From NCBI RefSeq assembly GCF_036588685.1, contig NC_086376.1, forward strand, positions 91,863,630 to 91,927,629: 64,000 bases of DNA, in the 5' to 3' direction. This DNA is from Mytilus trossulus (taxonomy: Eukaryota). Under the pieces are notes generated by a model that saw only the letters and a program-made list of their open reading frames with translations, was not told where the DNA came from and did no database searches. This document shows positions 2,355 to 63,100 of this stretch, in pieces (position 1 is the stretch's first letter; each line of letters starts with the position of its first letter). A program made the translations under genes and the position numbers.

Positions 2355-3888
2355 TTAAATTTCTGCAAATTCATCAGGTTCTCTTATTAAGTCTGATCTT
2401 AAGTTCACAAGGGCTGAACATACAAGAAGAATGTCTTCAAAGTTTTTCAAGGAGGACACTGGAACAGTACTACTTAGAATTTTGAAAACTTTAAGTCTAC
2501 GAATCGCACGCTCCACATGAATTCTAACTCTTGCTATACGCCTGGTTGTTGTTAAATCCTCATTACTAAGTTGTGGTTTGCATTTTGTAAAGGCTGGAAT
2601 ATTTAGTTTGACTCTGAGTGGGAAAAGTAAATCATCAATTGTGAAACCCCTATTTGCCATTACCTCGTCTCCTGGCAAAAGATACTGACAAAAGCCACTT
2701 TTTTCTACTATGAATTTATCACTTGCCCTACCTCCAAAAGCCCGAGATATAAACATTATATGTCCATGAGGTGCAATGCCAACAAGATATTTTGCAGTAT
2801 TATGTGACTTGTAGTTACTATAAGTCTCTGACCTACTCTTAAGATTTGTTGGTCTCTGTATAAATGTCTCAGCACAATCAATTATCACAGTTGTACGAGG
2901 ATAATTTTCCCGAAAAGATTCGGGAATACAAGCTCGAATTGTTTCTCGTGGAAGCCAAACAACCAAGCCTTTAAGTTGTTCAGCAAGAACTGGCATCCAA
3001 GAATTAAATAATTTGCATGCCAAACTTTTTGAAATACCAAAGCGACGTCCTAAATCATCAAATATCAAATGAAGTTTTAACCTCATCAGTACAAGCAAAA
3101 GCTGATCTGCAATATCTAGTTGAAAATTGAATTGATTGTCTTCACGTAGTAATTCCACTAAAGTAAAAAAAACTTCCTTGGTTACACCAGTATATAATAA
3201 GGCGTCACTGTCAATCACAATGTTCGTATTTGCTGACATGGTCCCCCCTTCTATTTTACTCTAAACACCTTTCTCCTCAGTCAATAAAAGTTTTGTCTGA
3301 GTTGATGTTGTCTGAATGTCTGACCATTTTTCAGAATAAGGATGGTCGTTATAAATAAGATAGTCCGTCTCATCATACTGGGTAGATTTAGTAACAGTTT
3401 CAGGGAAAGCTACATTAAAACTACATGTAGCCTCGGGATACGTTTCATTGTCATCATTTACAGAAATGTCTAGAGCTTCAAAACCAGTAGAGTCCGACAC
3501 ATTATCGTCACCAGAATTATTCTCATAACTTAATTTTAGCTTTTTCACAGCCGTTTCACGACGTGCTAACTTGCGTCTGCCGGGTGTAACTTTACTGTCA
3601 TAACCAAGTTTTAATTTTGGATACGGATTTCTTTTTGTCGGCGCACCATCAAGAAAATGTTGGCAAAGTTTTTCTGTTAATTGCTTTTATCCACTCGAGT
3701 TTTGTTAATTCGTCAGAAGGCATCATATGAAACTTGTATGGGATCAAACAAGGACAGTCATTGTGCAACTCGTTGTGTAATTCACACATTGATTTTTTCC
3801 ACATCTGGAGTTTTCTACGATTATTTGTACAACTATTAACTGCACACGAATTGCCTCCACCTTTTTTATAACTTTCGGCGCTTTCCAT
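2355..3888 (-). pseudogene. THAP-HTH-DDE transposase (PIF/Harbinger superfamily, ISL2EU-like), disabled
   Basis: ATG at 3888 opens MESAESYKKGGGNSCAVNSC...W IKAINRKTLP. After a frameshift near 3660 it resumes as HFLDGAPTKRNPYPKLKLGY (THAP C-terminal motif). The TAG at 3261-3263 is in frame with the ORF 2355-3239, which carries HTH (QLLLVLMRLK...DLGRRFGIS) and DDE_Tnp_4 motifs (IIDCAE, YSNYKSHNTAK, GGRASD, VMANRGF, RIHVERAI). Confidence 0.85.
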
Positions 3889-4977
3889 AGTAAAATAAAT
3901 TAATAAATGAAAGAAATATAAATGTAAACAGAAAATCGATAATGTTTTGATCAATGCACGTGCTTTATTTTTCACGGTTGTAATGGCTGACCGGTCACGT
4001 GAGAGGTCAATGGATGCGCCCACGTTTTCTAGGTCAGTTGTAGATAAACCCGTCTATATTCTTGTAAACTTTGATAGATAAAAGAAAACTTTGAAAGGGA
4101 AAAATGTTGATGAGGATGATATCTAGAATTACACTATTACTGAAATTGATAGTTTAATAACTCTATAGGTGACTTTCTAGAATATAATATTAAGACATAC
4201 AAAACAAAACATGACTAATTATTAATCGACAAAGAAAAGTCAATTTATTATTTCCTGATTTGTGAGAAATTCTAACAGAGTTATATAGATCCATCCAATC
4301 AAAAAATCATATATTAAGATAACACAATTAACATGCACGAAAAAAAGTGTTATTGGTGAATCCAGGCCAAAAAGAGGGGGGCCTGGGTTGGAACTCCCCC
4401 ATTTGTTTGACAATCAATGCTTTTGAATTTTGACATGGTTGGACTCCCCATTTATACTTAGTTGACATCCCCCTCCCTCTCCCCTTTTAAAATGGCTGGA
4501 TCCATCCTGAGTGTGTGGTGTGTGATAAATAATTTGTCGGGAGATGACAGATTGTTAAAAACCATCTTTTAACAAATCTTGACTGAAAGATAAATACCTT
4601 AACAGGGGTGGAACTTTATTTCCATGTAAACTCTTTAAAAAAAATATACTTTTAGAACTGATTTAAAAGATTAAAAAATGTTGTGATTGCTAATCCCAAT
4701 AATAGGACATTTGGTCACTTCAAAAAAATTTCTAGAATATTAGCTCATAGGCTTTGGTTTAGAAAGAAAATATTGAATAAAATCAAGGATTTGTAAGGAT
4801 TCAAGGATTTGTATTTTGTCTAACTATACAAATCCTTAAAAAAATTAATAGTGATTGTCGATTTTTTTTTCAATTTTACACGGATTTAAATCTTGCTTGG
4901 TCCGAAATTGGTTCACATATTATAAATCTGATTTGAGTTATCTCCCTTGCGACCTCCAAATTTTGGAGTCTCCGAGG

Positions 4978-7938: not shown

Positions 7939-9165
7939 TTGTCGAGCCTGCATCTTTTGTTGCAGAAAGCTCGACAAAGGGATAGTGATCCAGCGGCGGC
8001 GGCAGCAGCGTTAGCCAACTTCTTAAAAGTTTCATATTTTAGAAGGTGGAAGACCTGGATGCTTCATGCTTTGTATATAGATGCCTCATGTGACGAAGTT
8101 TCCATCAGTCACATGTCCAATGTCCTTGACCTCATTTTCATGGGTCAGTGACCACTTGAAAAAAAAGTTCAGATTTTTTATAATGTTGAATTCTCTCCTA
8201 TTATAAGTAATAGGATAATTATATTTGGTATGTGCGTACCTTGCATGGTCCTCATGCCTGTCAGACAGTTTTCACCTGACCTCGACCTCATTTCATGGAT
8301 CAGTGAACAAGGTTAAGTTTTGGTGGTTAAGTCCATATCTCAGATACTATAAGCAATAGGGTTTGTATATTCGGTGTATGGAAGGACTGTAAGGTGTACA
8401 TGTCCAACTGGCAGGTGTCATCTGACCTTGACCTCATTTTCATGGTTCAGTGGTTATAGTTAAGTTTTTGTGTTTTGGTCTGTTTTTCTCATATTTTATG
8501 CATTAAATCTACTATATTAGTTGTATGGAATGATTGTAAGGTGTACATGTCTAGCGGGCAGATGTCATCTGACCTTGACCTCATTTTCATGGTTCAGTGG
8601 TTATAGTTAAGTTTTTGTGTTTTGGTCTGTTTTTCTCATATTCTATGTAATAGGTCTACTATATTTGTTGTATGAAATAATTGTAAGGTGTACATGTCTA
8701 GCGCACAGATGTCATCTGACCTTGACCTTATTTTCATGGTTCAGTGGTCAAAGTTAAGTTTTTTAGTTTTGGTCTCTTTATCTAATACTATAAGCCATAG
8801 GTCAACTATATTTGGTGTATAGAAATATTTTATGAACTATATGTCAGTGGCGCAGGTTTTATTTGACCGTGACCTCAAATTTGACGGTTCATTACACAGT
8901 GTTAAAATTTTTGGTTTTTGTCTATTTTTATTAAACTATAAGTAAAAGGTCAACTATATTTGTTGTATGGAAGCATTGTTAGCTGTTCATGTCAACCTGG
9001 CATCTGTCCTTGACCTCATTTTCATGGTTCATTGGTCAGTGTTTAGTTATCTTTGTTAATGTTAAGTTCATGTGACAGTTGTGATAAAGCTTTATACTTA
9101 GGACTATCAATGCAATATCAATGATTAGTAAAGAAGGCGAGACATTCCAATGTGTGCACTCTTGT
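7939..9165 (+). mobile_element. HINE-like element with internal 147-bp tandem repeats (NDUFA13 intron 2)
   Basis: Inserted in a T-run. 5' inverted pair GTCGAGC...GCTCGAC, (GGC)n microsatellite, core GTCATCTGACCTTGACCT at 8417, 8564 and 8711 (period 147), 3' AGGCGAGAC...CTCTTGT. Related fragments at about 11572-11800 and 47600-48345. Confidence 0.7.
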
Positions 9166-9351
9166 GACTACTTTTTGTCTCACTTGAGGGAGTCAAAAAG
9201 CAGGACATAGGTATGCTAGTTCTGGTTTCGATGGTGGCGGCAACAAAGTATTAGTTTGTGATTATGTCTAGTTTTAAACTTTATGGTGAACTACTAGTTG
9301 TAGGTCACAGATAAGTCAATGGTATTTGGTATGCATTTGTATTATGTATAA

Positions 9352-9480
9352 AGAGATATAGGAAGATGTGGTGTGAGTGCCAATGAGACAACTCTCCATC
9401 CAAATAACAATTTAAAAATTAAACCATTATAGGTTAAAGTACGGCCTTCAACACGGAGCCTTGGCTCACACCGAAGCCTT
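9352..9480 (+). repeat. Dispersed repeat family (AGATGTGG..TGAGTGCCAATGAGACAACTCTCC)
   Basis: Further copies at about 34716-34870, 39393-39440, 50135-50570 (tandem and inverted), 52300-52470 (-) and 55360-55640 (-). Confidence 0.75.
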
Positions 9481-11482: not shown

Positions 11483-11903
11483 AAAGAAAAAAGACACTCC
11501 ATTGCACTATGTTGCAATTTTTGCAAATCTATAGCTTAATTGCCTCCCTTGAACAGATCCATTATTTCATTTTTGTCTCGCCTGCACAGAATGCAAAACA
11601 TATTGATTACAATCTGGCTACAGATTAACAATTTGTACAAAGGTTTATATTTCAGAAGGTAGAAGATCTGGATGCCTCATACCTTGTATGCAGCTGCCAT
11701 AGATCATAAACTATCTGTCTGTTATATAAAAATTACCATTATCCTCAACCTCATTTTCATGGTTCAGCAACTGTTGAAAAAAAGATTTTTTTTATATTCA
11801 CTGTTATATAGCCTTAGCCGATTTGGCACAACTTTTTGATATTTTGGATCCTTAATGCTCTTCAACTTTGTACTTGTTTGGCTTTATACATATTTTAATA
11901 TGA

Positions 11904-11947
11904 GTGTCACTGATGAGTATTATGTAGACAAAACGTGCGTCTGGCGT
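11904..11947 (+). ncRNA. Type I hammerhead ribozyme motif, degenerate (GAAA to AAAA; stem II mismatch)
   Basis: GTGTCA CTGATGA GTA-ttatgta-GAC AAAAC GTGC GTC^ TGGCGT. Confidence 0.7.
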
Positions 11948-12266
11948 ACTAAATTATAATCCTGGTAACTTTGATTACTATTTACACGACTGGGTCGATG
12001 CCATTGCTGGTGGACGTTTCGTCCCCGAGGGTATCACCAGCCCAGTAGTCAATACCTCGGTGTTGACATGAATATCAATAATGTGGTCATTTTTGTAAAT
12101 TTCCTGTTTACTAAAATTTGAATTTTCGAAAAAAAATAAGGATTTTCTCATCCCAGGCATAGATTACCTTAATTAATAGCCGTATTCGGCACAACTTTTG
12201 GGAATTTTGGATCCTTAATGCTCTTCAACTTTGCAGTTGTTTGGCTTTATAACTATTTTGATATGA

Positions 12267-12310
12267 GCGTCACTGATGAGTCTTATGTAATCGGAACGCG
12301 CGTCTGGCGT
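12267..12310 (+). ncRNA. Type I hammerhead ribozyme motif, degenerate (GAAA to GGAA; stem II damaged)
   Basis: GCGTCA CTGATGA GTC-ttatgta-ATC GGAAC GCGC GTC^ TGGCGT. Stem I GCGUCA pairs with UGGCGU. Confidence 0.72.
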
Positions 12311-13349
12311 ATCAAACTATAATCCTAGTACATTTAATAACTATCTTATCGGAAATAAAAGCATATTATTCTAAAACCAGTTGTTTGCATGATAAAGGTT
12401 AAGTTCTCATATATTATATGATGATATGATACCAAACCCCAAACGGGAGGGAATAAGTTGATTTAATTGGGGTCTGGAGCTGATATGCCAGTAACTGCCA
12501 GTAGTCCTTTGTTGATTTATGTGTTATTGTCATTTTGCTATGTTTCTGTGTTGCCTATTCTGACATTGGACCCGGACTTCATTTATCTGAGTTTTGCTGG
12601 GATTATTGCAGTTTTTTTGTTTATTCTACATTGGTTAGAGGTAAAGGAAAGGGTTGAGAACTCACAAAACATGTTGAAACCCGACGCATTGTTGTGGATG
12701 TTCCAGGTAGGGAGCATCTGGCCTTGTTAGTCTTGTATATTATAAGTTCAATTATATGTTTGAGTTCAGTGTGCCGTCCACTTTCACTGAACTATTGCAC
12801 ACTTTTCTCAAGACCAGCTTGATGCTGCCTCCTGGTAAGGCTTTTTTCACTGTGTTTAAGACCCAGTGGTGGAAATCGGGGTTTTCCGCCTTTTGGTCGG
12901 GTTGTTAACTCTTGACACATTCCCCATTTCCATTCTCAATTTTATCGTCAATAACACTGGTCTTATTAAACTCAATGAGAAAAATATCCCCGCAGATATC
13001 ACACAATAAAATTGTTTTTGTGCGTAAAGCAAAATATATAGACTGCTCAACAACGAAATAAAGTATTGACAACTCATGTGGAAACTCAACATATACGTCC
13101 ACGGCACTTACCAAAGAGTAAATTTTGAGCAATAATTTATGAAATGGAATGTCAACCAAAGATGAAAACTTGATCTTCCATCACTTTGCTTGATACCTAA
13201 ATCACATTGGTGTCCTTACGCACCACATTAGATTGCTCGAGCTATCGAGTGTCCCACGAAATAACATCAGTTTTATCAGGAGTTAAATCCGGGTTTCAAA
13301 GTTACCATGAGGGCATGCATCTACCTGATGTAGGGTTAGTGTAAATAGC

Positions 13350-14036: not shown

Positions 14037-14669
14037 ATAAACGTCTTTGCTACTTGGTTTTTTATTCGAGACTCACTGATGAGTCTGTTGTAGAGGGACG
14101 TGTGTCTGTCGCGAACTCAAAATTTCAATCCTGGTATTTATGAAGAGTTTATTCAATTGACTGTTATTGAATTTTTGAACCTGAGCTAACCACGTATATG
14201 GAACAATTATCGTAAACACAATTCTTTAGAGCGATTGATTTTGCCATTTTATTATAATTTGTTTTTGAAAATATTGCCCGGATTTCGGTGTTTTTTGTTA
14301 TTTTACTTTTGCTGAACCTTCACACAAATCTTATTATGTTTAAAAGTTTTATTTGAATCTTTGTAATTTTAAAGAATGTAGCAGGGTTAAACATGTTTGG
14401 AATGCTCTATAACAACCTGGTATAACGACACAACACATGGAGCCGGAATTGCAAGAAGCACAAAAAAAAACCCAACTAACTAATAGAAAAAATAACACAA
14501 AACACAGATATAAAAAAATGTACATATTTAAATGAATCATTGTTATAAATCACAAATAAACATTAAAAAGAGCAAATAATGATACAATATAAAGGACTGT
14601 TTTATCATTTTAAAATATTATGTCAAAAACTACAACTTACAACAGCCCAGTACTTCTGTCTGGACATGC

Positions 14670-14952
14670 ATAATCATTGAAATGGTCATATTTATAACTT
14701 AGCCGTTTACAAAACCTTGATTTTTTTTTAATACTAAGGCTTTTACACCTCAGGAATAGAGGGATATATTACCACAGCTGTATGTGACAATACATGTAGG
14801 AATTTGTGGTCTTCAATGCTCTTCAACTTCGTATTTGAATTGGTCTTTTTAACTATTTTTATTGAAGTGTCACCAATGAGTCTTTTGAAGATGAAACGCG
14901 CGTCTAGCGAAAATTAAAAAAATCAATTCTGGTATCTATGATGAGTTAATTT
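14670..14952 (+). mobile_element. Retrozyme-like repeat, second subfamily, degenerate hammerhead at about 14867-14909; another fragment at about 14050-14153
   Basis: GTGTCA CCAATGA GTC-ttttgaa-GAT GAAAC GCGC GTC TAGCG. Upstream aatgctcttcaacttcgta is shared with other copies. Confidence 0.65.
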
Positions 14953-15806: not shown

Positions 15807-18299
15807 TCAAAAGAACCAAAGTCGAAGCTTTTGCCAAGCAAATTGGACTTCGTCCATCTCAACAGGCCATTGAATTAAAAGAACATCTTTCCAAATAGTC
15901 GAAAACTCAATTGGAATGGTGTCCAAAGGGATATCTCTTGTAATAACAACAATCTTCTGCAGATTTTTGGAAAACTTTTCATACTTAGCTCGCTCGATTT
16001 CAAAGCGAGTCCATTCATTTTTAACAATTGACGGTGTTACTAGAAATATAATGTGTCTGCATCTGTTAATAGACGTAGCTCTTTCACTAGCAATCGATTC
16101 GCCTACAATGAAATCTCTGTCTTCAAAGCACACTTTGAATCCCCATTCGTGCTCCACTTTCTCTTGCAATTCTTTTACAAAAGAAACGCAGTCATCTGAA
16201 TATGAAATGTAAACGTCATAATCAAAATTCAGCTCAAGACCTTTCTCAGCAAATCTCCGAAAATTTCGAAAGAGAAAGAACATTATCCTCCATCTGAAAT
16301 TGTATAATAGAGCAATGCAAAGCACACTCGATAAAACAGAAACCAATAATGAAATACCTATTTTGATCCAAACGGTATTATCGCAGTCAACGAAATAATG
16401 ATGTAAGTCTTCAGCGACATTTGTTGTATAGTTGATACTTTTTCTTGAAGAAACCCAACAAGAGTAATTACCATTGTTATCTAACTCTACTTTAGTTGTC
16501 AAAATCCAACGGAGAAATTTCGTTGTGTCACACGAACAAATTAATGGATTATTACTAAGATATAATTTAAAAGATCCATGTTTATTATGCATGTTATCAA
16601 TCCACACTCGTATATGCTTTCCAATTGTTGTTAATTGATTGTACGACAAATCAAGTTCATCTAGGCTTACAAATGTTGTAACAACCTCTGGAATAGTCTC
16701 AAGCAAATTATGAGATAGATTGAGGTGTTTTAGATTATGAAGTTGCCCGAGCGAATTGGCCTTGATTTTCCAGATATAATTATTCGATATATCCAAATTT
16801 ATTATGTTCGGACAAAACCTTAATATTGTTGTATTAGTTTGTAAAACATTGATCAAGTTTGTTTCTCTCAAGATAAGTGTTTTTAGATGGATTAAAAAGG
16901 GTATTTTTGCATCTCCAATTGTTTTTACTGAACTTATACCCGACAAATCCAAATGATCCAAACTATTAAATCCTTCCATAGTTATACGTGGAAAGAAATC
17001 GGTTTCAAAGTAAGATATTTCAAGGTGACGAAGGAAGCTATTTTTTGCCTTTAATTCTAGAAAAGAACCTTCAGTCATCATATGAGTTATTCTAAAAAAT
17101 TGAATTTGACTCGGAATTAACACTGTCATTGAATTATGCTGTCTTGCCCATTTACCTTGAACTTTTTCAACTCTTGTAACGTTATCCTTTGTTATTACGT
17201 TAAGGAAAGTCGGATTCTTGAATCCTAACGGGAAATATGAAAAATCTATTATTTTAATGTTGGTCATCTTGAAGGTAAACAAGACGAAATCAACTTCCCA
17301 GCTATCCACACTAAAACTATTAGCAGATATAATAACTGTTTCAAAGCACTCTGGACGTTGAAACAAAACTAACGATTTGTTTTTAACTAATATAATGTTA
17401 TTTGCGGATAAGTCCATTGTTTTAATACAGATTGTATATGTATATTTCATCATCTCTGGTGTAAGAATAACTGGATCAATTCTATGTTTTGAATCTGGAC
17501 GAGTTATTCCGCGAAAAAGAAGTGCGTCCATTGATTTATTCTGAAATGGACGAAGAATGTTTAGGGCCTGTGCTAAGTGAATATTGCTGTTAGTGAGATT
17601 TAGCACACTAAGATGTGGAAACGGAATTAAAACGCCACCTTCAATGACAACAAACTCTCTACAAGTTGTCATGTGGAATTCTCGTATATTTACCGGCAAT
17701 TCTGAAAATGTTTCATTGTAGAGATGGTTTACGTTGCAATAATCAAGTTTCAATACTTGTAAATTGTGCAGTTTCTTGAACTGCTGTCCAAACGTTGCAT
17801 TAAACACAAGATCGATGCTCAGCTCACGCAAGTTACTGAGTCCGCTGACGGGAATTTTATATGGATTGTAGTCTCGAGATTTCATATTTCTACTGATGTC
17901 TAAAACAGATAAATTATTTAGCGGCTCAAACACTCCTTGAGGATACGATTCAGACACATTTAGATAATTTCTAGACAAAGACAAATGTCTCAATAATGAT
18001 AAGCTACTGAAAGCCGTAGTATGTAACCATCTGATATCATTGTTATCAATTAGTAGGTATTCTAGATACTTATATCTACGAAACCCGCTGGCATCCAGAC
18101 GTGTCAGTCTATTATAACTTAAATCTAATTTCTTTATATCAGGTGGTAAATTCGTCGGAATCGATGTAAATCCTTGATGTTTACACGAAGCCTCTTTATA
18201 GCCCAACATATTTAGTGTGATATTGCATTTTGCAAACACAGTTCTATATGGAAACAGACATGTAATACACACAACTATGAACTTCCACATATTATCCAT
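15807..18299 (-). CDS. Toll-like receptor (single cysteine cluster type), paralogue A, 830 aa, intronless
   Basis: Signal peptide, LRRNT (C..C..QGFTSIP), multiple LxxLDLSxN repeats, LRRCT (NPLICSC), TM helix (IGISLLVSVLSSVLCIALLY), and TIR (YDVYISYS, DRDF..G, EWTRFE, WQKL). Confidence 0.95.
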   Translation of the reverse strand: MDNMWKFIVVCITCLFPYRTVFAKCNITLNMLGYKEASCKHQGFTSIPTNLPPDIKKLDLSYNRLTRLDASGFRRYKYLEYLLIDNNDIRWLHTTAFSSLSLLRHLSLSRNYLNVSESYPQGVFEPLNNLSVLDISRNMKSRDYNPYKIPVSGLSNLRELSIDLVFNATFGQQFKKLHNLQVLKLDYCNVNHLYNETFSELPVNIREFHMTTCREFVVIEGGVLIPFPHLSVLNLTNSNIHLAQALNILRPFQNKSMDALLFRGITRPDSKHRIDPVILTPEMMKYTYTICIKTMDLSANNIILVKNKSLVLFQRPECFETVIISANSFSVDSWEVDFVLFTFKMTNIKIIDFSYFPLGFKNPTFLNVITKDNVTRVEKVQGKWARQHNSMTVLIPSQIQFFRITHMMTEGSFLELKAKNSFLRHLEISYFETDFFPRITMEGFNSLDHLDLSGISSVKTIGDAKIPFLIHLKTLILRETNLINVLQTNTTILRFCPNIINLDISNNYIWKIKANSLGQLHNLKHLNLSHNLLETIPEVVTTFVSLDELDLSYNQLTTIGKHIRVWIDNMHNKHGSFKLYLSNNPLICSCDTTKFLRWILTTKVELDNNGNYSCWVSSRKSINYTTNVAEDLHHYFVDCDNTVWIKIGISLLVSVLSSVLCIALLYNFRWRIMFFLFRNFRRFAEKGLELNFDYDVYISYSDDCVSFVKELQEKVEHEWGFKVCFEDRDFIVGESIASERATSINRCRHIIFLVTPSIVKNEWTRFEIERAKYEKFSKNLQKIVVITRDIPLDTIPIEFSTIWKDVLLIQWPVEMDEVQFAWQKLRLWFF

Positions 18300-21640: not shown

Positions 21641-23002
21641 TCTTGATAGTGACATCAAGAGAATTATCGTCAGCATGAGCAACACCATGAGTTCAACAGA
21701 CGTACCATCCATTGCATACCCTTTCGGTGCACATGGCATCACACTGGATTTTTTGTCGTGTTGGTGTTGATCAAATATAGTTTTTTCAGTATATTTTTTA
21801 GGTAATGAATGTGGAATCGTTTGACTCTTAATCGTTTTTCGTATTTTCGGTGGTTCTTTCAGCTTTTCTGAAACTGACGAGTTTTGAATATACACTTGCT
21901 AATTATTTATTTTTTATTTGAGTTGAAAACTCAAAAGCATTAAAGCATCATTTTCTTATTCTAATGTATTTTCAAAAGCCTTTTTGAGTTGTATCAGCCT
22001 TAATTAAAAAAGAACAACGTCAGGTACACATATTTTATTCATTAGGGCCATTTATTATTAGTATAACAATTTAGAATACAATTCTACCAAATTTGAAATC
22101 CCGCGCATCAAATTCAAATTATTACTTGTGTCGTTTGGTTTGGTAAAAAAAATATGCAAGTAACTTCCTCATTCATATTTTTAAACACAGATCATGGACT
22201 TTCCAAGATATAATACTACAAACAATAGCTTGACAAAATTCCCGTTTGAGCTTTTGAATGTATATCAAACATGGAAAAACCCGTCCAATGACGTAGTGGT
22301 AGGTTTAATAGAAATCAGGGTTCAGTATTTAAAGTGTACTTAACATTTTTTGAATCCTCATTATATATATGATAAAGTTCAAACATAAACTCATACAAAA
22401 TGATATGGTTTTTAATACTGTACACCAGACATGCGTTTTTAAACCATTATTTTCTTTTATTCTTCTTTAGTTTTATGATTCCGACATATCCTTTCCTATA
22501 GGTAAATTATCACTTCTAATACAATATCTTTCAAAGTCGTGTGATTTAAAGATCTCCGTAACCTGTTGGCAGCTATTGTTCGATTTATAACTACATGTAC
22601 CCTTCATGACAGACTCTAATCGTTAGATATATAAATATCTTTATTTACCGACCATTCAATTTGATACTACTTATATTCAATTGGTTTCCGTTTTTTCGTA
22701 CATATTCTAAGTATTTTTTTTCAGTGCTTTACAACAAGCGGTTGGTCATCCATATTATTTAACACAGCATAATCAGAGGAATAGTGAACAACGCTCTAGT
22801 TACATTTTTAACTAACATCTAATTTTAATAACAGTGCTCTAGCAATTAAATCAAATGGAACCAATGAGGATTACAAAAGTAGGTAATAAATCATTTCTTT
22901 TTTAACTTTTAAACATTCGGTTAAATGTATTTGTACGATCAATTACGATCCAACCATATTATTAGTTACATAGTGTGCTAGTGACCTAATACGGTATATA
23001 CG

Positions 23003-23078
23003 GTCACTGATGAGTCTTATGTAGACGACACGCGCGTCTGGCGTACTAAATTATAATCCTGGTACCTTTGATAACTAT
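23003..23078 (+). ncRNA. Type I hammerhead ribozyme-containing fragment (GAAA to GACA) inside an inverted-repeat element
   Basis: GTCA CTGATGA GTC-ttatgta-GAC GACAC GCGC GTC^ TGGCGT. One substitution from a perfect core. Confidence 0.75.
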
Positions 23079-25430
23079 ATGTAGCTTCGCTCTCATCCCA
23101 TATGGAATTTACTGACCCCATATATACCGTATTACGTCACTATCACACTTTGTAACGAATTTATCTTGCAGACTATCTTAACGTGTACAATGTAGTCTTG
23201 TGATCTATCAAAATACTGTTAACATTAAGAAAGTAAGTCCATTGATCCGACAAAAACAACAGCCAACGATAACAACATGTTAGGTTTAAATCTGTTTAAT
23301 GAATTTAATTCAACCTTAATCATCAATTTATTCATTTGTTGAAACCTTTAAGATTTTTATCTCAGTTCCGTTTTGTTTTTATAAAGGGACGTAACACGAC
23401 TATTAACTGTGTATGAAGTAAGCCCTGCCTCCCTACTACCTAATATGGAATGTAAAGGAACGTAACTCCACTACTAACCGTGTATGAAATAAGCCCCGCC
23501 TCCCTAATAACTTAATAGCAAATATACGTGGTCTTCACGCGGATGCTTTTAACCAATCACATTCCTAGACATGTATATAGGAGGTAAGATAATTGAAAAC
23601 TATTCTAACATTCTTTGAATTATTCCCATACATTTAACATATCATATAAAACACAACAAAGGAGTTTAGATAAAGGACAGTCAAGATCTTTTTTGAACAT
23701 TTTGGTATGAGACACATTTTGCACTTTACCATCTTTAAAAAATAAATACGAAAAGCATACAATTCCGACAATAAAATTGAGAATGGAAATGGGGAATCTA
23801 CCAAAGAGACAACAACCCGATCATAGAGCAGACAACAGCAGAAGGTTACCAACAGGTCTTCAATGCAACACGAAATTACGGCACCCGGAGGCGTCCTTCA
23901 GCTGGCCCCTAAACAAATATATACTAGTTCAGTGATAATGAACGCCATACTAAACTCCAAATTGTACAAAAGAAACTAAAAGTTAAAATAGTACCGGAAT
24001 AACCAAGGCCAGAGGCTCCTGACTTGGGACAGGCGCAAAAATGCGGCGGGGTTAAACATGTTTGTGATATCTCAACGCTCCCCCTATACATCTGTCCAAT
24101 GCAAATATCTGCATTAACTATTTTCTCTTTATTTTTTATACAAAGTATGTGGTTATGCATAAGCATTAAAATGTTCATGCATTACATGACTTTCGAGTTA
24201 TTTTAGTTTCAAAATTGGATGATTTATATAAAAACACAATTTGTTTTTTTTTAATTTCCGGAATTAATACCAGCTATAACTTTCAAACAAAAAGAGATAT
24301 TTCACCCCTTTTTGGCAACGTGTTCTATACTTTGAAGGCCTTTTAGTTAGTCCCTGAATTAAAGTTGGACTGCGATAAAAAAAAAAATGTATTATATACT
24401 AATTTATGCGTTCATCGTGTAGAACGCAACATGCGGGATATCGGCTATGCTCGACACGGGGTGGCGATTTGAAGTGGAGAAAAACTACTAAGAAAAAATA
24501 AAGTATCAAAGTTTCTTTTTAGACATTTGTTAGAAACAAATAATGTATTGCACGGAAGGAAATGAATCATTATATATTTCCTGCAAGCAGACGCAGAAAT
24601 TTTCAGTGCTCTCAAACACCTCTCTCTAGTTTTTCCTGTTGAAGATTTTAACGCTTCGTATACAAGTTTCAGGGTAAAAAAAACCTTTTTCTACATTTGA
24701 AAATGCCTGTACCAAGTCAGGAATATGACAGTACTTGTCCATTCGTTTTTGATGCGTTTTGTTATTTGATTTTGCCATCTGATTATGGACTTTCCAAATT
24801 GATTTTCCCCTGAGTTCAGTATTTTTGTGATTTTACTTTTTTTTACGATTTTTTCCTGGTAAAAATAAATTTTGACAAAAGAAAAACAGTATAATTTTTA
24901 TATTATTATTTTTCTTCTTTCAAGTTACTTGGTCTAAAATAAGAGAATTTCCTTTCACCTCTTATGTATTTATTCTGGATACAAGTATTGCATTTATGAG
25001 TTAGAAAGACAGTTTACTTAAACATTGTACTTGTTTACAAATAATAAATTAACTGTTTTAGCGATTATTCAAGCTCGTGAATATAACATGCATGTTAATG
25101 TTTCTAATATGTAATAACTACTTCTCTGAAGTTTAAAGAATTACACATCAGACAACATTGACAAAATAATAGTTTATTGAAAAAATATTTGATTTTCTAT
25201 TTAATACTCGTCAGTTTAAAATGCTTAAAGTGAAATTCGTCAGACAATGAGAACTAATTCAGTTATTTTTGGTAAAAAAAACGACATGTGTTTTATAACT
25301 AGGGTTGTTGTTCTCTTTGATACAGTAGCCAGCCTAAACAAATTGAAACAAATATCTTTATAATATTCAAAATATATGTGAAGATAAAGAATGTACTAGT
25401 AGTCATTATAATAAAATAGAGAATGGAAGT

Positions 25431-26724: not shown

Positions 26725-27195
26725 GTTTTTAATGCTCTTTAACTTTTGTATTTGAAGTGCACTTAAAATGTTTTACTAAAGCGCCTCTGATACGAAACTC
26801 GCCTCTGACTTACGGCAGCATCATTGTAAATATAAGGAATTTGGTGAGACTGTCATCAAAGTGAGAGGTTAAGCGCTATAAAACCAGATTTAATCCACCA
26901 TTTTCTACATTTGAAAATGCCTGTTCCAAGTCAGGAATATGACAGTTCTTGTCCATTCGTTTTTAATGCTCTTTAACTTTGTATTTGAAGTGCACTTAAA
27001 ATGTTTTACTAAAGCGCCTCTGATACGAAACTCGCCTCTGACTTACGGCAGCATCATTGTAAATATAAGGAATTTGGTGAGACTGTCATCAAAGTGAGAG
27101 GTTAAGCGCTATAAAACCAGATTTAATCCACCATTTTCTACATTTGAAAATGCCTGTTCCAAGTCAGGAATATGACAGTTCTTGTCCATTCGTTT
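26725..27195. repeat. Near-perfect tandem duplication, ~234-bp unit
   Basis: aatgctctttaac... at 26731 and 26965; essentially identical apart from one T. Confidence 0.9.
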
Positions 27196-27773
27196 TTGAT
27201 GTGTTTTGTCATTTGATTTTGCCATGTGCTTATTGAATTTCCGATTAGATTTTCCTCTGAGTTCAGTATTTTTGTGATTTTACCCTAATGATTTTTCGTA
27301 GGATATTCTTGAATTCAACTTCCACTATAAAAGTAATAAAGTATGTTATTTTTAAGCATCTAAAGTCCAATTGGATTTGTCTCATTGACAATCAAACCAC
27401 ATCTCCTCATTTTATATGATCAAATTTTTAACTTCAGTTCAACGAGGAATATCTTGCTAACATGATCTTAATATATGCTAATTTTTAAACATTTTTTGTT
27501 TCAAATGGCTTTCAACTTCTTAATTGATGTGAACTTAAAACTGGTTTAATCCATCGCTACTGATACAAAACTCGCTTCTGGTTTTCAAAATTTTAAGATT
27601 TAATCAAGTTTTGAATGATGTTCTGAAAGTCACCTACTACTGTAAAAAATAAAGTAATGGTTTTTTTAAGCATCTAAAGTCCAATTTGTAAGAATTTAAT
27701 TTATAGCATAGTTAATTATTATAGTTACGGATCGTCCATTTGAAAATAGCGTTATTTTCTGTAGTTGAAATGT

Positions 27774-28078
27774 TGAAACCGAAAGATTGAAACTTATGTA
27801 ACAAACATTTAAACTTGTAAATAAAACAATACCAAAAGAGGGACGAAAGATACCAAAGGGACAGTCAAAAACAAATTATATCACAGCTACTCCCCTTATT
27901 GGAGAACATCATTTTGTTTTCAAACTGAAACCGAAAGATTGAAACTTATGTAACAAACATTTAAACTTGTAAATAAAACAATACCAAAAGAGGGACGAAA
28001 GATACCAAAGGGACAGTCAAAAACAAATTATATCACAGCTACTCCCCTTATTGGAGAACATCATTTTGTTTTCAAACT
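27774..28078. repeat. Perfect tandem duplication, 152-bp unit
   Basis: tgaaaccgaaagattgaaac... at 27774 and 27926. Confidence 0.9.
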
Positions 28079-28390: not shown

Positions 28391-28727
28391 ATTTACAATC
28401 ACTGGGTCGATGCCACTGCTGATGGATTTTAATACCCCGAGGGTATCCACTGTGATGACTTCAGTTACTTAGTATCATTGATATGTTCAATTATAAATTG
28501 ACTATTAACAAACTTTGAACTTTTCTACCTCAGGAATAGGGTACCTTAGCTGTATTTTTCAAACTTGTAGGATCTTTTGGTCCTCAATGGTCTTCAGTTT
28601 CGTACTTTATTGGCCTTTTAAACTATTTTTGATTCGAGCGTCACTGATAAGTCTTTTGTAGACGAAATGGGCGACTGGTATAAACAAAACATCTCAATCT
28701 TGGTATCAATTATGAGTATATCTACAA
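28391..28727 (+). mobile_element. Single retrozyme-like monomer (~337 nt), second subfamily, degenerate hammerhead at 28638-28679
   Basis: Starts ATTTACAATCACTGGGTCGATGCC and ends ATCTACAA. Core GCGTCA CTGATAA GTC-ttttgta-GAC GAAAT GGGC GAC TGGTAT. Confidence 0.7.
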
Positions 28728-30102
28728 ACAGCTTTGTATTAGATAAAGGCAACAGTAGTATACCGCTGTTCAAAACTCATAAATCCAGGGACAAAAACCA
28801 AAATCGGGGTATCAAACTAAAACTGAGGGAAACGCATTAAATATAAGAGGAGAACAACGACACACCATTTAAATTAAGCCGGGGGATACATTCTATTATT
28901 GAGTATACGGGGATGTGCCAAAAAGATGGGTAATAATTTTCTGAGATTTTATAAAGCAATTACTTTTCTTTTTTAAAATGACATTCTATATCAAAATGCG
29001 TTTACGTTTGATACCTGTATATTGATTGGGGGCATGATCTACATATCATATGTAAATACGCTATTGGAAATCTCACATATATGATCACCAACCGATGTCA
29101 ATTCATATGCATATGTCTGTAAAAACTTATGGGTAGCTTTGTTTATAAATTATTAGTGAAGATATAGATTTAGTTGACGCATATTTTGAATATTGCATAT
29201 GGGTATAGATGCGTGCTTTCTTAAATATCTATATCACTATATTTACTGAATTTCAGGGAATGCTATATAGAAATCAGTACGTTTTTTAGGCAAACATGGA
29301 ACATTCCTATAAAAAAGTCAACGTAACCTCCGGGAGCATTATGATATCTATAGGAAAGCGACTTTAAGAATGCACAGGTGCACGTAAAAAGGACGTTGTA
29401 AAGGTAAAAATTTCAAAGTAGCGATAAATCAGTCAACACTTCAAGGTGTCTCTTAAACGTTATAGTGGTTCGAACTGAAATATATATTAGTTTTCATATA
29501 AAATGGATAAAGAAAATCAAAAGTAGCTGCTCTTTAGATTTGCATTAATGGGATCCAGACGCATCGCATGCCATGTGGTCTGGAGACATGCATCATACTC
29601 ATATCTAGGTGAAAAGACAAATTGTAAAAGTAATTCGGTTCTTTTGACAAATTTTATGCTAATTGAATTTATATTTGTTTTAAAATTACAATTCGATAAG
29701 TTTGCATTAAATAAATTGGTGCCTTTATGTCGATAATTAATACAACGAATATGTCGTAATAATATTATAAAGTGTTTTATTTGATAAAAACGTAAACTGA
29801 TAATATGAGACAATGTCTTATAAGCCTTGAATTTTCGTAACAACTATATAAAAAGGGATTGTGCTGCAATACACTCAGTTGTATGAAAACAATTATTGCA
29901 ATAATGATCCGCATGTTGTACATGAACAATGGTTTAGCTTGAATGCACAATTTTCCTTTGTCTGCATACCTTAAACGATGCAAAAAGAAACTTGAAAAGG
30001 AAAACTATTGGAATAACAAAAGTAATGAAAAAAGGTTTACACGTACAAAGGTTATGCATGGTTCACTATCCATTCGGTCGACGCTAGTACCATAATACCT
30101 TA

Positions 30103-32595
30103 TCAAAAGAACCAAAGTCGAAGCTTTTGCCAAGCCATTTGAACATCTTCCTTCTCACTCGGCCATTGAATTAAAAGTACATCTTTCCAAATAGTCGAAA
30201 ACTCCATCGGAACAGTGTCCAAAGGGATATCTCTTGTAATAACAACAATCTTCTGCAGATTTTTAGAAAACTTTTCATACTTTGCGCGCTCAATTTCAAA
30301 TCGAGTCCATTCATTTTTTACAATTGACGGCGTTACTAGAAATATGATGTGTCTACATCTATTTATTGACGTGGCTCTTTCATTAGCAATTGATTCGCCT
30401 ACAATGAAATCTCTATCTTCAAAGCAAACTTTGAACCCCCAGTCGTTCTCTACTTTCTCTTGCAAATCTTTCACGAAAGAAACACAGTCATCTGAATATG
30501 AAACATAAACGTCATAATCAAAATTCAGCTCAAGACCTTTCTCGGCAAATCTCCGGAAATTTCGGAAGAAAAAAAACATTATCCTCCATCTGAAATTGTA
30601 TAATATAGCAGAACAAAGCACACTCGATAGAACAGAAACCAATAATGAAATGCCTACTTTTATCCAGACAGTAGTATCACAGTCAACGAAATAAGGATGA
30701 AAGTCTTCAGCGACAGTTCTTGTATAGTTGATACTGTTTCTCGAAGAAACCCAACACGAGTAATTACCATTGTTATCTAACGTTACGTCAGTTGTCAAAA
30801 TCCAACGTAGAAGTGTAATCGATTCACATGAACATATAAACGGGTTAGTATTTAGATGTAATTGAAAGGTTCCATGTTCTTTGTGCTGGGAAGATATCCA
30901 ATCTAGTATATTCTTTCCAATTGTTGTTAATTGATTATGCGATAAATCGAGTTCGACAATGCTATAAAACGTAGTTACAACATCTGGAACAGTCTCAAAC
31001 AAATTATGCGATAGATTGAGCCGTTTAAGATTATGAAGTTGTCCAAACGATTTTGTTTCGATTTTCCAGATATAATTATATGATATATCCAAATTCATTA
31101 TATTTGGACAAAAACTGAATATTGATGAATTAGTTTGTAAAACATTGAACAAGTTTGTTTCTTTCAAGATAATTGTTTTCAGATGAATGAACGTCGGAAT
31201 TTTTCTGTCTCCAATAGTTAATACAGAACTGATTCCTGATAAATCCAAATACTCCAAACTATTAGATCCTTCAAAAGTCAAAAGTGGGAATATATTTGTT
31301 TCGAAGTAAGATATTTCAAGGTGACGAAGGGAGCTGTTTATGGTTTTTATTTCCCGAAAGGCATTTTTAGCCATAAGATGCGTTATTCTCAAAAATAGGA
31401 TTTGACTCGGAACTGTCACTGCAATTGGTATAACCCTTCTCCCCCATTTTCCTTTCACTTGTTCAACACTTGTATAGTTGTCTTTCGTTACTACGTCAAG
31501 GAAAATTGGATTTTTGAAACGTAAAGGAAAATATGAAAAATCGATTATTTTAATGTTAGTCATCGTGTATACAAATTTAAAGAAATAACCAGCCCAGTTA
31601 TCCAAACTAAATCTATTAGCAGATAACATAACGTTTTCAAAGCACTCTGGATGTTTAAACAGGACTAACGATTTGTTTTTAACTAATATAATGTCATTGT
31701 CAGAGAGGTCTAATGTTTTTATACAAATAGTTGATATATAACTCATCATCTCCGGTGTAAGAATAACCGAATCTAAGCCTTGTTTAGACTCAGCATGAGA
31801 TATTCCGCGAAACAGCAGCGCATCCATTGATTTTTTCTGGAACGGGTGTAATATGTTTAGGGCCTGTGCTAAGTGAATATTGCTGTTAGTAAGATTGAGC
31901 AATTTTAGACGTGGAAATGGAACTAAAACACCACTTTCAATGACAACAAAGTCTTTACACGTTGTCATGTGGAATTCCCGTATATTTACCGGCATTTCTG
32001 AAAATGTGTTATTGTATAAATGGGTAACGTGACAATAATCAAGTTTCAATACTTGTAAATTGTGCAGTTTCTTAAACTGATGTCCAAACGTTGCATTTAA
32101 AACTAGATCGATGCTCAGCTCACGCAAGTTACTAAGTCTGCCGACGGGAATTTTGTACGGGTTATAATTTATAGTTTTCATATTTCTACTTATGTCTAAA
32201 ACTGATAAACTCTGTAGAGATTCAAATACTTCATGGTGATACGACTGAGAAACAGACAGATTATTTCTAGACAAAGACAAATGCTTCAATAGTGATAATC
32301 CATGAAAGGCCTTATGATGCAACATGTTGATTGAGTTATGATCAATTATGATATCTTCTAGATACTTATATCTATAAAATCCGTTGGAATCCAGCCTGCT
32401 CAATCTATTAAAACTTAAATCCAATTTCATTATATCGGGTGGTAAATTTGTTGGAACCGATGTAAGTCCTTGGTATCTACATAAAGCCGCCTTATGGCCG
32501 AACAAATTAAGAGTAATATTGCATTTTGCAAACACAGTTATATATGGACAAACACATGTAAAACACAAAACCATGAAGGTGAACATATCATCCAT
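30103..32595 (-). CDS. Toll-like receptor paralogue B, 830 aa, intronless
   Basis: Same SP-LRRNT-LRR-LRRCT(NPFICSC)-TM-TIR architecture. Cytoplasmic part differs from paralogue A at about 13 of ~165 residues (counted by eye). Confidence 0.95.
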   Translation of the reverse strand: MDDMFTFMVLCFTCVCPYITVFAKCNITLNLFGHKAALCRYQGLTSVPTNLPPDIMKLDLSFNRLSRLDSNGFYRYKYLEDIIIDHNSINMLHHKAFHGLSLLKHLSLSRNNLSVSQSYHHEVFESLQSLSVLDISRNMKTINYNPYKIPVGRLSNLRELSIDLVLNATFGHQFKKLHNLQVLKLDYCHVTHLYNNTFSEMPVNIREFHMTTCKDFVVIESGVLVPFPRLKLLNLTNSNIHLAQALNILHPFQKKSMDALLFRGISHAESKQGLDSVILTPEMMSYISTICIKTLDLSDNDIILVKNKSLVLFKHPECFENVMLSANRFSLDNWAGYFFKFVYTMTNIKIIDFSYFPLRFKNPIFLDVVTKDNYTSVEQVKGKWGRRVIPIAVTVPSQILFLRITHLMAKNAFREIKTINSSLRHLEISYFETNIFPLLTFEGSNSLEYLDLSGISSVLTIGDRKIPTFIHLKTIILKETNLFNVLQTNSSIFSFCPNIMNLDISYNYIWKIETKSFGQLHNLKRLNLSHNLFETVPDVVTTFYSIVELDLSHNQLTTIGKNILDWISSQHKEHGTFQLHLNTNPFICSCESITLLRWILTTDVTLDNNGNYSCWVSSRNSINYTRTVAEDFHPYFVDCDTTVWIKVGISLLVSVLSSVLCSAILYNFRWRIMFFFFRNFRRFAEKGLELNFDYDVYVSYSDDCVSFVKDLQEKVENDWGFKVCFEDRDFIVGESIANERATSINRCRHIIFLVTPSIVKNEWTRFEIERAKYEKFSKNLQKIVVITRDIPLDTVPMEFSTIWKDVLLIQWPSEKEDVQMAWQKLRLWFF

Positions 32596-38521: not shown

Positions 38522-40106
38522 ACTGAAATTGTACAAAACACGTACGAACGTAGGCAAATTACAATAAAGAATGAAATTCCTTGATCACAGGAATAAAACA
38601 AAACGAAATCTGCAACTTACCACTAAAAAAAACAAGAGAAACTACAGTTTTAAGCAAAATCTGAAAGCAAAATTGTAAAGAATTATTTCAAATCAAAATG
38701 CCTATCAATAGTTTAGGGTGCATTATGCGGATGATATTTGATGTCACTCAAGTTTAAGATAGGGCTCGAACCAATTCAACTTTAGTTGTTTTAATTGCGC
38801 ACTATCAGTTGTCAACACATCTGTTTTGTTATTGTCTCTAGACACCTTGGGTGCCAATAAACATTTTTTTAAATAGTTATCACAGGTTAAAGGACTTGTT
38901 GTTTTTCTAATCTCAGATATACCAACTGTCTTCCCTCTTTGAATAGTCTGGCTTCTACAAATAACTTTATGTGATCTGAATGACAACTAATGTTCAAGTT
39001 TGCAAGTTCGAAATAAAATTCACTTCGTTGTCAATTGTAATAATCAAAACAGATGAAGAGCTATGTTACCAAAAAAGAACCTTAAAATTCGCCTTATACA
39101 CTTTCAAATTTTCCTGAGATAGTTGATCAAATATCCGTTTGAAAATAGGACAATGCTTCAAACACCCTATTAACTTCATGAAAAAGATGTGAGGACGTAT
39201 TTATTATGTTAGTATATAAGGCGTGCATGCCTCCAGTCCCACAACAAAAACATGAGAAACAAATCTTTCTTTACCATTAAAAGAGTTAGAGTAGTTTCCC
39301 TTTGTATTGTATTCTATGATGATCGCTAAAATCAAATTCTTCTCTAACATATGTTTGATTTATCAATTTCTGCTTAAAATATTGATATAAAAAAGAAGAT
39401 GTGGTATGATTGCCAATGAGACAACTATCCACAAGCCCCATAAGGAGGAAGAAATCCATCTAGGAACATTAAGTTTTGCTTGGGCATTGGAGTGAATCAG
39501 ATGTTGGATAAGCATATCTCTAGCATATAGGCCAATTTTGATCAATTTAATGTAAATGCATTTACGGATTCTGATTTCGAATACTCGAATACAGAATTAA
39601 ACTAGTCCAGTTTGTTGTTCATAGAACTTTCATATCCTCTAGTTCGGCTCCCATTCAGAATCAACCAATATATATATATACAGAATTTATTTGACCCGAC
39701 CAAATGGTCTTGATCAATCATTTTACTTATATGATGAGCTTTGTATTTCTTTGAAAGAGGAATCAACTGAAGTAAAAGTGATATATGAAAATTGTATTTG
39801 AAATTATTCTTTGTCAACATACTTTGTAGGAAAAATGTCTATAATAACCAATTTTTCGTTTTGAAATGTTTGCCAATGAATGACAACAACAACCTTTATT
39901 ATGCGAAACAAACACTTATCGGTTTGTATTTTATTAGTTTGTAATTTAAATTTATACGTGTTTAGAGTTAAAATCGCTAAACTGAATCACGTGATCCATT
40001 TATATATATGTTGTTATCAGATCATTGTAACATAAGTTTGGTTGAAAGTAGATATTTGTTCAAACAAATCAGGAAGTAGTTGAATTGCAATCGCTTATAC
40101 TGACAA

Positions 40107-47234: not shown

Positions 47235-47527
47235 AAAAGGTTTAAGCCAAACAAGTAAAATGTTGAAGAGCATGGAGGATCCGAAATTCCAAAAAGTTGT
47301 ACCAAATAAGACTATGATAATCCTTAGTTTTTCGAAAATTCAAAGTTTTGTAAACAAAAAATTTGTATCAAATGACCACATTATTGATATCCATGTCAAC
47401 ATCGAAGTGTTGAATACTGGGCAGATGATACCCTCGGGGACGAAACGTCCACCAGCAATGGCATCGACCCAGTGGTGTAAATAGTTATCCAAGGTACTAG
47501 GATTATATTTTAGTACGCCAGACGCGC
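47235..47527 (-). mobile_element. Retrozyme-like repeat fragment (minus strand) nested in the CAC-ended element
   Basis: Reverse complement starts GCGCGTC^TGGCGTACTAAA and is collinear with 11935-12250. Confidence 0.8.
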
Positions 47528-62728: not shown

Positions 62729-62917
62729 CAAATCACAATCCAGAAGAGTAAAAAAACATAACTAAATAAAATGGTAAAAAGGGACCTGACGTTGGTCTCC
62801 ACGTGTGTAGGGAAGATGGGACTCATGTCATGCTTTTTTATAACCTTTTTGGTTGATTTATTTTGTTAATAACTTAATATCTTTATTAGAGATTGTTAGT
62901 ACCAAATGACTGTCAAC

Positions 62918-63074: not shown

Positions 63075-63100
63075 TCAAATGTAAAGTAAAGAATAAGATG

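What the first reader, a model, noticed from the sequence alone, without database searches (positions are those of the whole stretch)
11811..12344. Hammerhead-ribozyme retrozyme family (363-nt tandem unit) scattered through the window
Seen: a dispersed repeat whose cross-copy consensus is GCGTCA-CTGATGA-GTC(loop)GAC-GAAAC-GCGC-GTC^-TGGCGT. This folds as a type I hammerhead: stem I GCGUCA/UGGCGU, CUGAUGA core, 3-bp stem II, GAAA, a minimal stem III that is the palindrome ACGCGCGT, and a GUC cleavage triplet. Copies lie at 11904, 12267, 14070, 14867, 23003, 28638 and 47235-47527 (-), in at least two subfamilies. The two tandem motifs are 363 nt apart. Known: tandem type I hammerheads with palindromic stem III cleave as dimers and release monomers that circularise (non-LTR retrozymes, reported from several metazoans including Mytilus). 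Inference: these are genomic footprints of a self-cleaving circular-RNA element. Each copy here has a different core lesion, so active masters must lie elsewhere.
Basis: partly seen in the sequence, partly recalled or inferred. Interest (0 to 1): 0.75.

Follow-up and report, generated by a model that had tools for sequence, protein, structure and literature searches.

The report
Decayed mussel hammerhead retrozyme copies
These are decayed copies of a mussel repeat that carries a hammerhead self-cutting RNA motif, most likely the already published Mytilus retrozyme whose intact members would release small RNA circles; the one fresh hint is that most copies end at the same spot, likely where copying back into DNA begins.

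Summary
The repeat is real. The window is Mytilus DNA. Six type I hammerhead motifs lie where stated, each with its own core lesion. Among family reads from two RNA runs, 90-98% carry the canonical base at the five lesion sites listed for the two tandem motifs. A related contig holds an intact core (Rfam Hammerhead_1, E 1e-5). Family RNA is abundant and strand-biased. This matches the M. galloprovincialis retrozyme of Cervera & de la Peña 2020 (two families, 350-390 bp, circular RNA), so it is very likely already known; I could not compare sequences directly. Corrections: the family unit is about 355 nt (363 includes a private insertion); the 47-kb copy has no core; the published mussel motif cleaves as a monomer; junction reads cannot prove circularity. 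New hint: 5 of 7 insertions end 40-49 nt after the cleavage site, beside a conserved hairpin, while 5' ends scatter. This suggests a fixed internal start of reverse transcription, as in Penelope-like elements. The scan earlier noted a sea-squirt retrozyme (e1-6788282) but nothing like this sequence.

The parts
11812..12346 (+). Retrozyme insertion, subfamily A, about 1.5 units: starts 127 nt before the first cleavage site, ends 40-43 nt after the second
   Evidence: 466 of 524 columns identical (89%) to the natural tandem array in L001; end mapped
11904..11947 (+). Type I hammerhead motif 1, predicted dead (G12>A at 11930, stem II C>A at 11919); cleavage site after 11941
   Evidence: Rfam RF00163 17.2 bits; family reads carry the canonical bases in 90-96%
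12267..12310 (+). Type I hammerhead motif 2, predicted dead (A13>G at 12294; stem II broken at 12290-12291); cleavage site after 12304
   Evidence: RF00163 20.5 bits, E 0.031; family reads canonical in 96-98%
11942..12304 (+). Site-to-site monomer, 363 nt, 38% GC, non-coding; family unit about 355 nt
   Evidence: no ORF of 120 aa or more overlaps it
11986..12049 (+). Predicted GC-rich hairpin starting about 45 nt after the cleavage site, just 3' of the shared element end
   Evidence: z -1.8 to -2.4 in 4 of 5 copies, z +0.2 in the decayed 28.4-kb copy; 2 of 25 pairs change on both sides, in one sequence, L002
12170..12178 (+). Private 7-nt insertion of this copy
   Evidence: reads leave out 7 nt at 12170 or 12172; absent in L001
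14059..14156 (+). 5'-truncated subfamily B copy, decayed core; ends at about +46
14640..14952 (+). 5'-truncated subfamily B copy (U4>C, G5>A); ends at about +42
23003..23078 (+). 76-bp subfamily A fragment (A14>C); ends at +40; lies between 32-bp inverted arms of another element
28391..28730 (+). Subfamily B copy of one turn with internal deletions; begins at +39 and ends at +45 to +49 (G8>A, U16.1>A)
47244..47527 (-). Subfamily A copy without catalytic core (-6 to -57); an exception to the shared 3' end
   Evidence: 258 of 282 columns identical to L001
26731..27048 (+). Very decayed remnant (stem II region lost), present twice inside a 233-bp, 99% tandem duplication; weak match
   Evidence: nhmmer E 0.0013 and 0.015 with the A query, not found with the B query

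Best explanation
The locus is a decayed 1.5-unit copy of a high-copy, non-coding Mytilus repeat with a type I hammerhead motif, most likely the published mussel non-LTR retrozyme, whose intact members would be transcribed, self-cleave and be ligated into circles of about 355 nt, and would likely be copied back into DNA by a Penelope-type reverse transcriptase. Shown here: the repeat, the host genus, an intact core in the read majority, abundant strand-biased family RNA, and lesions in all window copies. Published for M. galloprovincialis: monomer self-cleavage, circular RNA, and circle formation by RtcB in vitro. Inferred: new copies arise by target-primed reverse transcription that starts at a fixed internal site 40-49 nt downstream of the cleavage site, just 5' of a conserved GC-rich hairpin that would bind the enzyme. 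Copying then runs back across the cleavage junction and stops at variable points, which gives fixed 3' ends, variable 5' ends and partial tandems. This locus is predicted not to release its own monomer, because both cores are hit.
For: Host: window TLR and THAP/DDE proteins cluster at 90% with Mytilus proteins only, among named members. Core: at 11919, 11930, 12290, 12291 and 12294 the canonical base is read in 0.895-0.977 of covering reads in both RNA runs, e.g. 1171 of 1309 and 2534 of 2605. L001 holds a motif with no core lesion, RF00163 33.3 bits, E 1e-5, 355 nt from the next motif. Stems I-III are paired in 91-94% of cells, against 28-52% for the whole structure when slid. RNA: 6534 of 8.71 M and 11029 of 7.34 M reads lie on the unit; first mates on the - strand exceed + by 5.3-8.6 fold in mid-unit and 2.2-3.9 fold at the motif, which in most stranded libraries means ribozyme-sense RNA. 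Literature: about 5000 type I HHRs in two families, 350-390-bp repeats, kobs about 0.1/min and circular RNA on northerns in M. galloprovincialis; construct Mg353. Ends: 5 of 7 insertions end within +40 to +49, simulated P about 5e-5 under uniform ends, while 5' ends lie at -6, -35, -48, -84, -127, -246 and -316. L002 also seems to end near +46 (weak alignment, score 29). Reads show heterogeneous loose ends at the same unit position: 190 reads at 11982 in X22 with agreement 0.41, and 221 contigs at 12344 in X2 with agreement 0.40. A purified Penelope-type enzyme starts internally, downstream of its hammerhead, and genomic ends match those starts.
Against: Circularity was not shown here: no sharp read starts or ends (table 6), and go-back joints occur in the DNA run too. 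Library strand chemistry is not stated, and the organism of these runs is not shown to be the window's species. No covariation beyond shuffles in the hammerhead stems (173-469 of 500 shuffles reach the observed values). The hammerhead fold is not the minimum-energy fold even in the intact copy (-6.3 versus -13.7 kcal/mol). The intact copy scores just under Rfam's gathering cut-off (33.3 versus 34). The L001 monomer folded as a circle is no more stable than shuffles (z -0.5; the window monomer gives -2.2). The end clustering rests on 7 insertions with 2 exceptions. The two copies behind TLR genes could be one duplicated insertion; their flanks do not align, but if merged, 4 of 6 gives P about 0.001. 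The 12344 loose ends fall where the reference copy itself ends, and the depth step at +40 is confounded by subfamily B reads. No target-site duplication of 6 nt or more at 6 of 6 insertions tested. No Penelope ORF among the 8 ORFs of 120 aa or more, and no genome to search.
Confidence: 0.88

Rival explanations
1. The repeat is a non-autonomous Penelope-like element derived from a pseudo-LTR. It moves through uncleaved linear tandem transcripts, and the circles are by-products rather than transposition intermediates.
For: In the anole element PAc, hammerhead mutants do not impair insertion and unprocessed RNA is the main template. Xenopus retrozymes are homologous to PLE pseudo-LTRs. The five copies with the shared end all cross the cleavage site intact, which an uncleaved precursor explains as well as a circle. 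No read ends pile up at the site.
Against: Circles dominate mussel retrozyme RNA on northerns. Reads from the presumed sense strand cover the whole unit more evenly than the other strand (mid-unit/motif 0.67-0.70 versus 0.28-0.32). No autonomous partner was seen. This rival differs from the best reading only in the template.
Confidence: 0.3
2. It is a separate Mytilus retrozyme family, not one of the two described in 2020.
For: No direct sequence comparison was possible. The window's species was not fixed. A third variant upstream of 11989 appears in 246 reads with 0.89 agreement.
Against: Same genus, two similar subfamilies, a 355-nt unit inside 350-390 and close to Mg353, a high copy number and abundant RNA all fit the description.
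Confidence: 0.1
3. The cis motif cleaves only as a double hammerhead through the palindromic stem III.
For: The stem III octamer is self-complementary, with a duplex of -13.3 kcal/mol. The monomer stem III has only 2 pairs and a tetraloop.
Against: The cloned mussel repeat cleaves at about 0.1/min with one motif; the same paper calls a 2-bp stem with a tetraloop the more stable, invertebrate-like form, and the review says most invertebrate motifs cleave as monomers.
Confidence: 0.12
4. It is an ordinary dispersed or satellite repeat whose likeness to a hammerhead is chance or a dead relic.
For: All 6 window motifs are broken, there is no Rfam hit window-wide, and no covariation.
Against: The lesions differ from copy to copy and the read majority is canonical. 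An intact copy matches all 45 positions of RF00163.
Confidence: 0.02

Closest known systems
Mytilus galloprovincialis non-LTR retrozyme (Cervera & de la Peña 2020, PMC7229834; GenBank MN642551-MN642576)
   Same: Host genus, type I hammerhead, two similar ribozyme families, unit of 355 nt (published 350-390; construct Mg353), GC below 45%, non-coding, tandem organisation, abundant RNA
   Different: Sequence identity not tested. The window copies are decayed and mostly 5'-truncated. The parts of the paper I read do not map element ends.
Rfam RF00163 Hammerhead_1 (type I)
   Same: Full 45-position match, including the GAAACGCGCGUC stem III region; 33.3 bits for the intact L001 copy
   Different: Window copies score 17-21 bits, below the gathering score of 34.
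Penelope/Poseidon-clade PLEs, e.g. PAc of Anolis (PMC11167929), and PLE-derived vertebrate retrozymes (bioRxiv 10.64898/2026.07.22.740005)
   Same: Type I hammerhead, partial tandems, 5' truncation, and genomic ends fixed downstream of the hammerhead
   Different: No ORF. The hammerhead here keeps a helix III. The end lies 40-49 nt after the cut, against about 85-92 nt in PAc (my subtraction). No autonomous partner was identified.
Amphibian satellite-2 type / axolotl retrozymes (HHR_Amex1, HHR_Amex2)
   Same: Tandem units of 330-350 nt with a type I hammerhead and a short helix III
   Different: Those cleave well only as dimers; the mussel motif cleaves as a monomer.

Membership tests
Type I hammerhead ribozyme (family level) | CUGANGA, GAAA and UH core intact | tested here: met
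   No lesion in L001b; read majority canonical at the 5 listed lesion sites. Not met in any of the 6 window motifs.
Type I hammerhead ribozyme (family level) | Three helices with helix I open | tested here: met
   Stem I 6/6, stem II 4/4 and stem III 2 bp in L001; 91-94% of cells paired, but no covariation above shuffles; RF00163 E 1e-5
Type I hammerhead ribozyme (family level) | Self-cleavage after UH | not testable with these tools
   Published for a M. galloprovincialis repeat; reads show no end at the site
Metazoan non-LTR retrozyme | Type I hammerhead in head-to-tail units of about 150-450 bp | tested here: met
   363 nt here, 355 nt in L001
Metazoan non-LTR retrozyme | Non-coding, GC below 45-50% | tested here: met
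   38% GC; no ORF of 120 aa or more
Metazoan non-LTR retrozyme | No LTR, PBS or PPT; no 4-bp plant-type TSD architecture | tested here: inconclusive
   No LTR-like arrangement in the copies; no TSD of 6 nt or more at 6 of 6 insertions; PBS, PPT and 4-5-bp TSDs were not searched
Metazoan non-LTR retrozyme | High copy number and transcribed | tested here: met
   7 insertions in 64 kb; 53,547 contig records laid in one DNA run; 0.075% and 0.15% of reads in two RNA runs
Metazoan non-LTR retrozyme | RNA accumulates as monomeric circles | not testable with these tools
   Junction letters equal the tandem DNA; go-back joints occur in both RNA and DNA runs
M. galloprovincialis retrozyme of Cervera 2020 | Mytilus host, two similar families, 350-390-bp unit | tested here: met
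M. galloprovincialis retrozyme of Cervera 2020 | Sequence identity to the deposited circles | not testable with these tools
Non-autonomous Penelope-like element | Homology to the pseudo-LTR or 3' end of an autonomous PLE | not testable with these tools
   No genome held; no RT ORF in the window
Non-autonomous Penelope-like element | Fixed ends downstream of the hammerhead with variable 5' truncation | tested here: inconclusive
   5 of 7 ends at +40 to +49; small sample; a second end 30-40 bp away (the optional tail) was not seen

The most novel reading that the evidence does not exclude
Mussel retrozyme copies share one 3' boundary 40-49 nt downstream of the hammerhead cut, right before a conserved GC-rich hairpin. 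This marks an internal reverse-transcription start by which a Penelope-type enzyme primes on an end-less RNA circle, giving a genomic footprint of how animal retrozyme circles are mobilised and a handle for finding their autonomous partner.
Probability: 0.45. Interest if true: 0.5.

Novelty: already known. Interest (0 to 1): 0.27.

Why it matters
The element itself is very likely the published mussel retrozyme, so it confirms rather than extends what is known, and the copies here are predicted dead. What could matter is the shared end. A 2020 review states that metazoan retrozymes show no conserved motif pointing to the retrotransposon that moves them, and a circle has no free 3' end to prime from. 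A fixed internal start beside a conserved hairpin would name the likely enzyme-binding site and can be tested at once on any Mytilus assembly.

Tried and rejected
No whole genome is held, so there is no genome-wide census. The window-wide Rfam scan gave only 3 sub-threshold miRNA-family matches on other repeats, rejected as chance. Pattern scans: viral contigs gave 0, 0 and 1 hits; the one hit, L004, lacks the CUGANGA half and is a chance match in GC-rich DNA. Genome contigs gave 0 and 0. Metagenome contigs gave 3 loci. Free folding of 7 motif copies (9 stretches) did not return the hammerhead as the minimum-energy fold. An extension of stem I beyond a 4-nt bulge is possible but weak (71% of cells paired) and is not claimed. 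The TSD search was negative. Go-back joints as proof of circles were rejected because they occur in DNA contigs too. Expression of this very locus is not supported: 47 of 6534 and 53 of 11029 reads are 99% alike or more. RNA rows X15-X20 had small word shares; only X16 was laid, and none is used for habitat. The scan's own notes held nothing by sequence or place. PMC10886601 passages were irrelevant.

Full report
Setting. The window is AT-rich (28-37% GC) and holds three single-exon LRR-TIR genes and a DDE_Tnp_4 transposase remnant. Exact look-up puts these proteins in clusters whose named members are all Mytilus, on a 96-Mb contig. No whole genome was available.

Observation. BLAST, nhmmer and the repeat finder recover the family at 11812-12346, 14059-14156, 14640-14952, 23003-23078, 28391-28730, 47244-47527(-), and weakly at 26.7-27.0 kb. 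A natural intact 44-nt motif finds 5 window sites with 5-8 substitutions and none in 50 of 50 shuffles. The 47-kb copy has no core at all. The 363-nt spacing is right for this locus, but reads remove 7 nt at 12170-12172 and the natural array in L001 has a 355-nt unit.

Is the family core intact? I scanned metagenome contigs with a motif from outside the ribozyme, so as not to select for intact cores, and got 3 loci. Of their 4 motifs, 1 has no core lesion, 2 have one lesion and 1 is heavily decayed. The intact one matches Rfam Hammerhead_1 over all 45 positions (33.3 bits, gathering 34, E 1e-5). I then laid 4 of the 24 listed runs (2 raw RNA, 1 DNA contig set, 1 RNA contig set) on 11780-12420 at 80% likeness. 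At the five lesion sites listed for the two tandem motifs, the canonical base makes up 0.895-0.977 of reads in both raw RNA runs. No difference at the CUGAUGA segments appears among the rows shown; 43 rows were not shown. The stems pair in 91-94% of cells but show no covariation above shuffles in 8 closely related, decayed copies, and the hammerhead fold is not the minimum-energy fold. The structural case thus rests on the motif match, not on folding.

Expression. Family reads are 6534 of 8,710,588 (0.075%) and 11029 of 7,335,232 (0.15%) records. First mates on the - strand exceed those on + by 5.3-8.6 fold in mid-unit and 2.2-3.9 fold at the motif, which in most stranded libraries means ribozyme-sense RNA; the chemistry is not stated. 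Under 1% of reads are 99% alike or more, so they come from other copies, and the runs' organism is not shown to be the window's species. No read starts or ends pile up at the cut. Go-back joints occur in DNA contigs as well and reflect the tandem unit; a ligated junction has the same letters as tandem DNA, so such reads cannot show circles.

Comparison with what is known. Cervera & de la Peña 2020 (PMC7229834; I read parts 1-4 of 6, the whole main text) describe about 5000 type I hammerheads in two similar families in M. galloprovincialis. They lie in 350-390-bp repeats, a cloned repeat cleaves at about 0.1/min, circles are abundant on northerns, and RtcB circularises about 30% in vitro. Its supplement, which holds the motif and clone sequences, could not be read, so identity with the published family is inferred from genus, unit length, two subfamilies and abundance. 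At this locus both cores are hit, at G12 and at A13 plus stem II. G12 is the general base of the hammerhead (established knowledge, recalled). In a double hammerhead each site uses one copy's whole core (recalled), so pairing in cis is not expected to rescue cleavage.

A shared 3' end. Measured from the cleavage site, the 3' ends lie at +40/43 (12344-12348), +40 (23078), about +46 (14156), +42 (14952) and +45/49 (28726-28730). The exceptions are the 47-kb copy (-57) and the 26.7-kb remnant. The 5' ends scatter from -6 to -316, and the 28391 copy begins at +39, making one turn. Five of 7 ends within 10 nt of a 355-nt unit has a simulated chance of about 5e-5. If the two copies behind TLR genes are one duplicated insertion (their flanks do not align), 4 of 6 gives 0.001. 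The census used whole natural units of both subfamilies as queries, so it was not restricted to motif-bearing copies. Reads leave the unit into mixed sequence at the same position (190 reads at 11982 in X22; 221 contigs at 12344 in X2; agreement about 0.4), though the second count falls where the reference itself ends and subfamily mixing confounds depth. Directly 3' of this point is a predicted GC-rich hairpin, found in 4 of 5 copies (z -1.8 to -2.4), with 2 of 25 pairs changed on both sides in the one subfamily B sequence. No TSD of 6 nt or more was found.

Mechanistic reading. Frangieh et al. 2024 (PMC11167929; parts 1-2 of 4 read, the main text) show that a Penelope-type enzyme nicks AT-rich DNA and starts reverse transcription inside the RNA, in a stem-loop downstream of the hammerhead, and that genomic ends match those starts. 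Hammerhead cleavage was not needed for insertion there. Craig et al. 2021 (PMC8557442; passages) describe partial tandems and a 30-40-bp tail in PLEs. Li et al. 2026 (bioRxiv 10.64898/2026.07.22.740005; parts 1-3 of 5, the whole main text; supplements closed) link vertebrate retrozymes to PLE pseudo-LTRs but do not map ends in the text read. I infer that the mussel element is copied from a fixed internal start near +40 to +49, back across the cleavage junction, on a circle or an uncleaved multimer; my data do not tell these two templates apart. Section 7 of the review leaves the partner open. Six answered literature searches (listings only, except for the papers named) showed no paper that maps retrozyme ends in mussels. 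The library lacks most subscription papers and I could not see the supplements, so this is weak evidence of novelty. I also saw passages of bioRxiv 10.1101/721605 and PMC10886601, which added nothing.

Verdict. The element is very likely already known; interest 0.27. The shared 3' end is a small, testable lead (probability 0.45, interest 0.5 if true).

Noticed in passing
window 15807-18299(-), 30103-32595(-), 40104-42596(+): Three single-exon 830-aa Toll-like receptor genes (LRR and TIR domains shown for the first), 82-84% alike in DNA; a local expansion typical of Mytilus clusters.
   Followed up: partly
window 2355-4053(-): PIF/Harbinger-like transposon remnant: a DDE_Tnp_4 plus HTH_Tnp_4 ORF, with upstream frames interrupted by a stop; relatives are annotated as 450-520-aa THAP-domain proteins.
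   Followed up: partly
window 22972-23149: The 76-bp retrozyme fragment lies between 32-bp inverted arms (91% alike) of a MITE-like element; the left junction shares a short microhomology with the ribozyme's stem I.
   Followed up: partly
window 26725-27201: 233-bp tandem duplication, 99% identical, joining a decayed hammerhead remnant to another dispersed repeat; possibly very recent or an assembly duplication. A 152-bp, 100% tandem duplication lies at 27774-28078.
   Followed up: no
reads laid before window 11989 (run X22): 246 reads share a different sequence upstream of the GC-rich hairpin (agreement 0.89): a third expressed variant of the family.
   Followed up: no
window 8272-9036: 147-bp tandem array (5.3 copies) with related fragments at 11733 and 47.7 kb; it resembles the internal repeats of non-autonomous DNA elements (recalled, not tested).
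   Followed up: no
window 50353-50572, 9330-9475, 52348-52459, 55505-55646: A dispersed repeat family with long internal inverted arms gives sub-threshold Rfam miRNA hits; likely MITE-like hairpins.
   Followed up: no
window 62089-63572: Adjacent minisatellites of 32, 17 and 46 bp.
   Followed up: no
window 14640-14952 and 28391-28730: Both long subfamily B copies lie 0.9 and 1.4 kb downstream of TLR genes, on the opposite strand, each followed by a copy of the same other repeat; the direct flanks do not align.
   Followed up: partly
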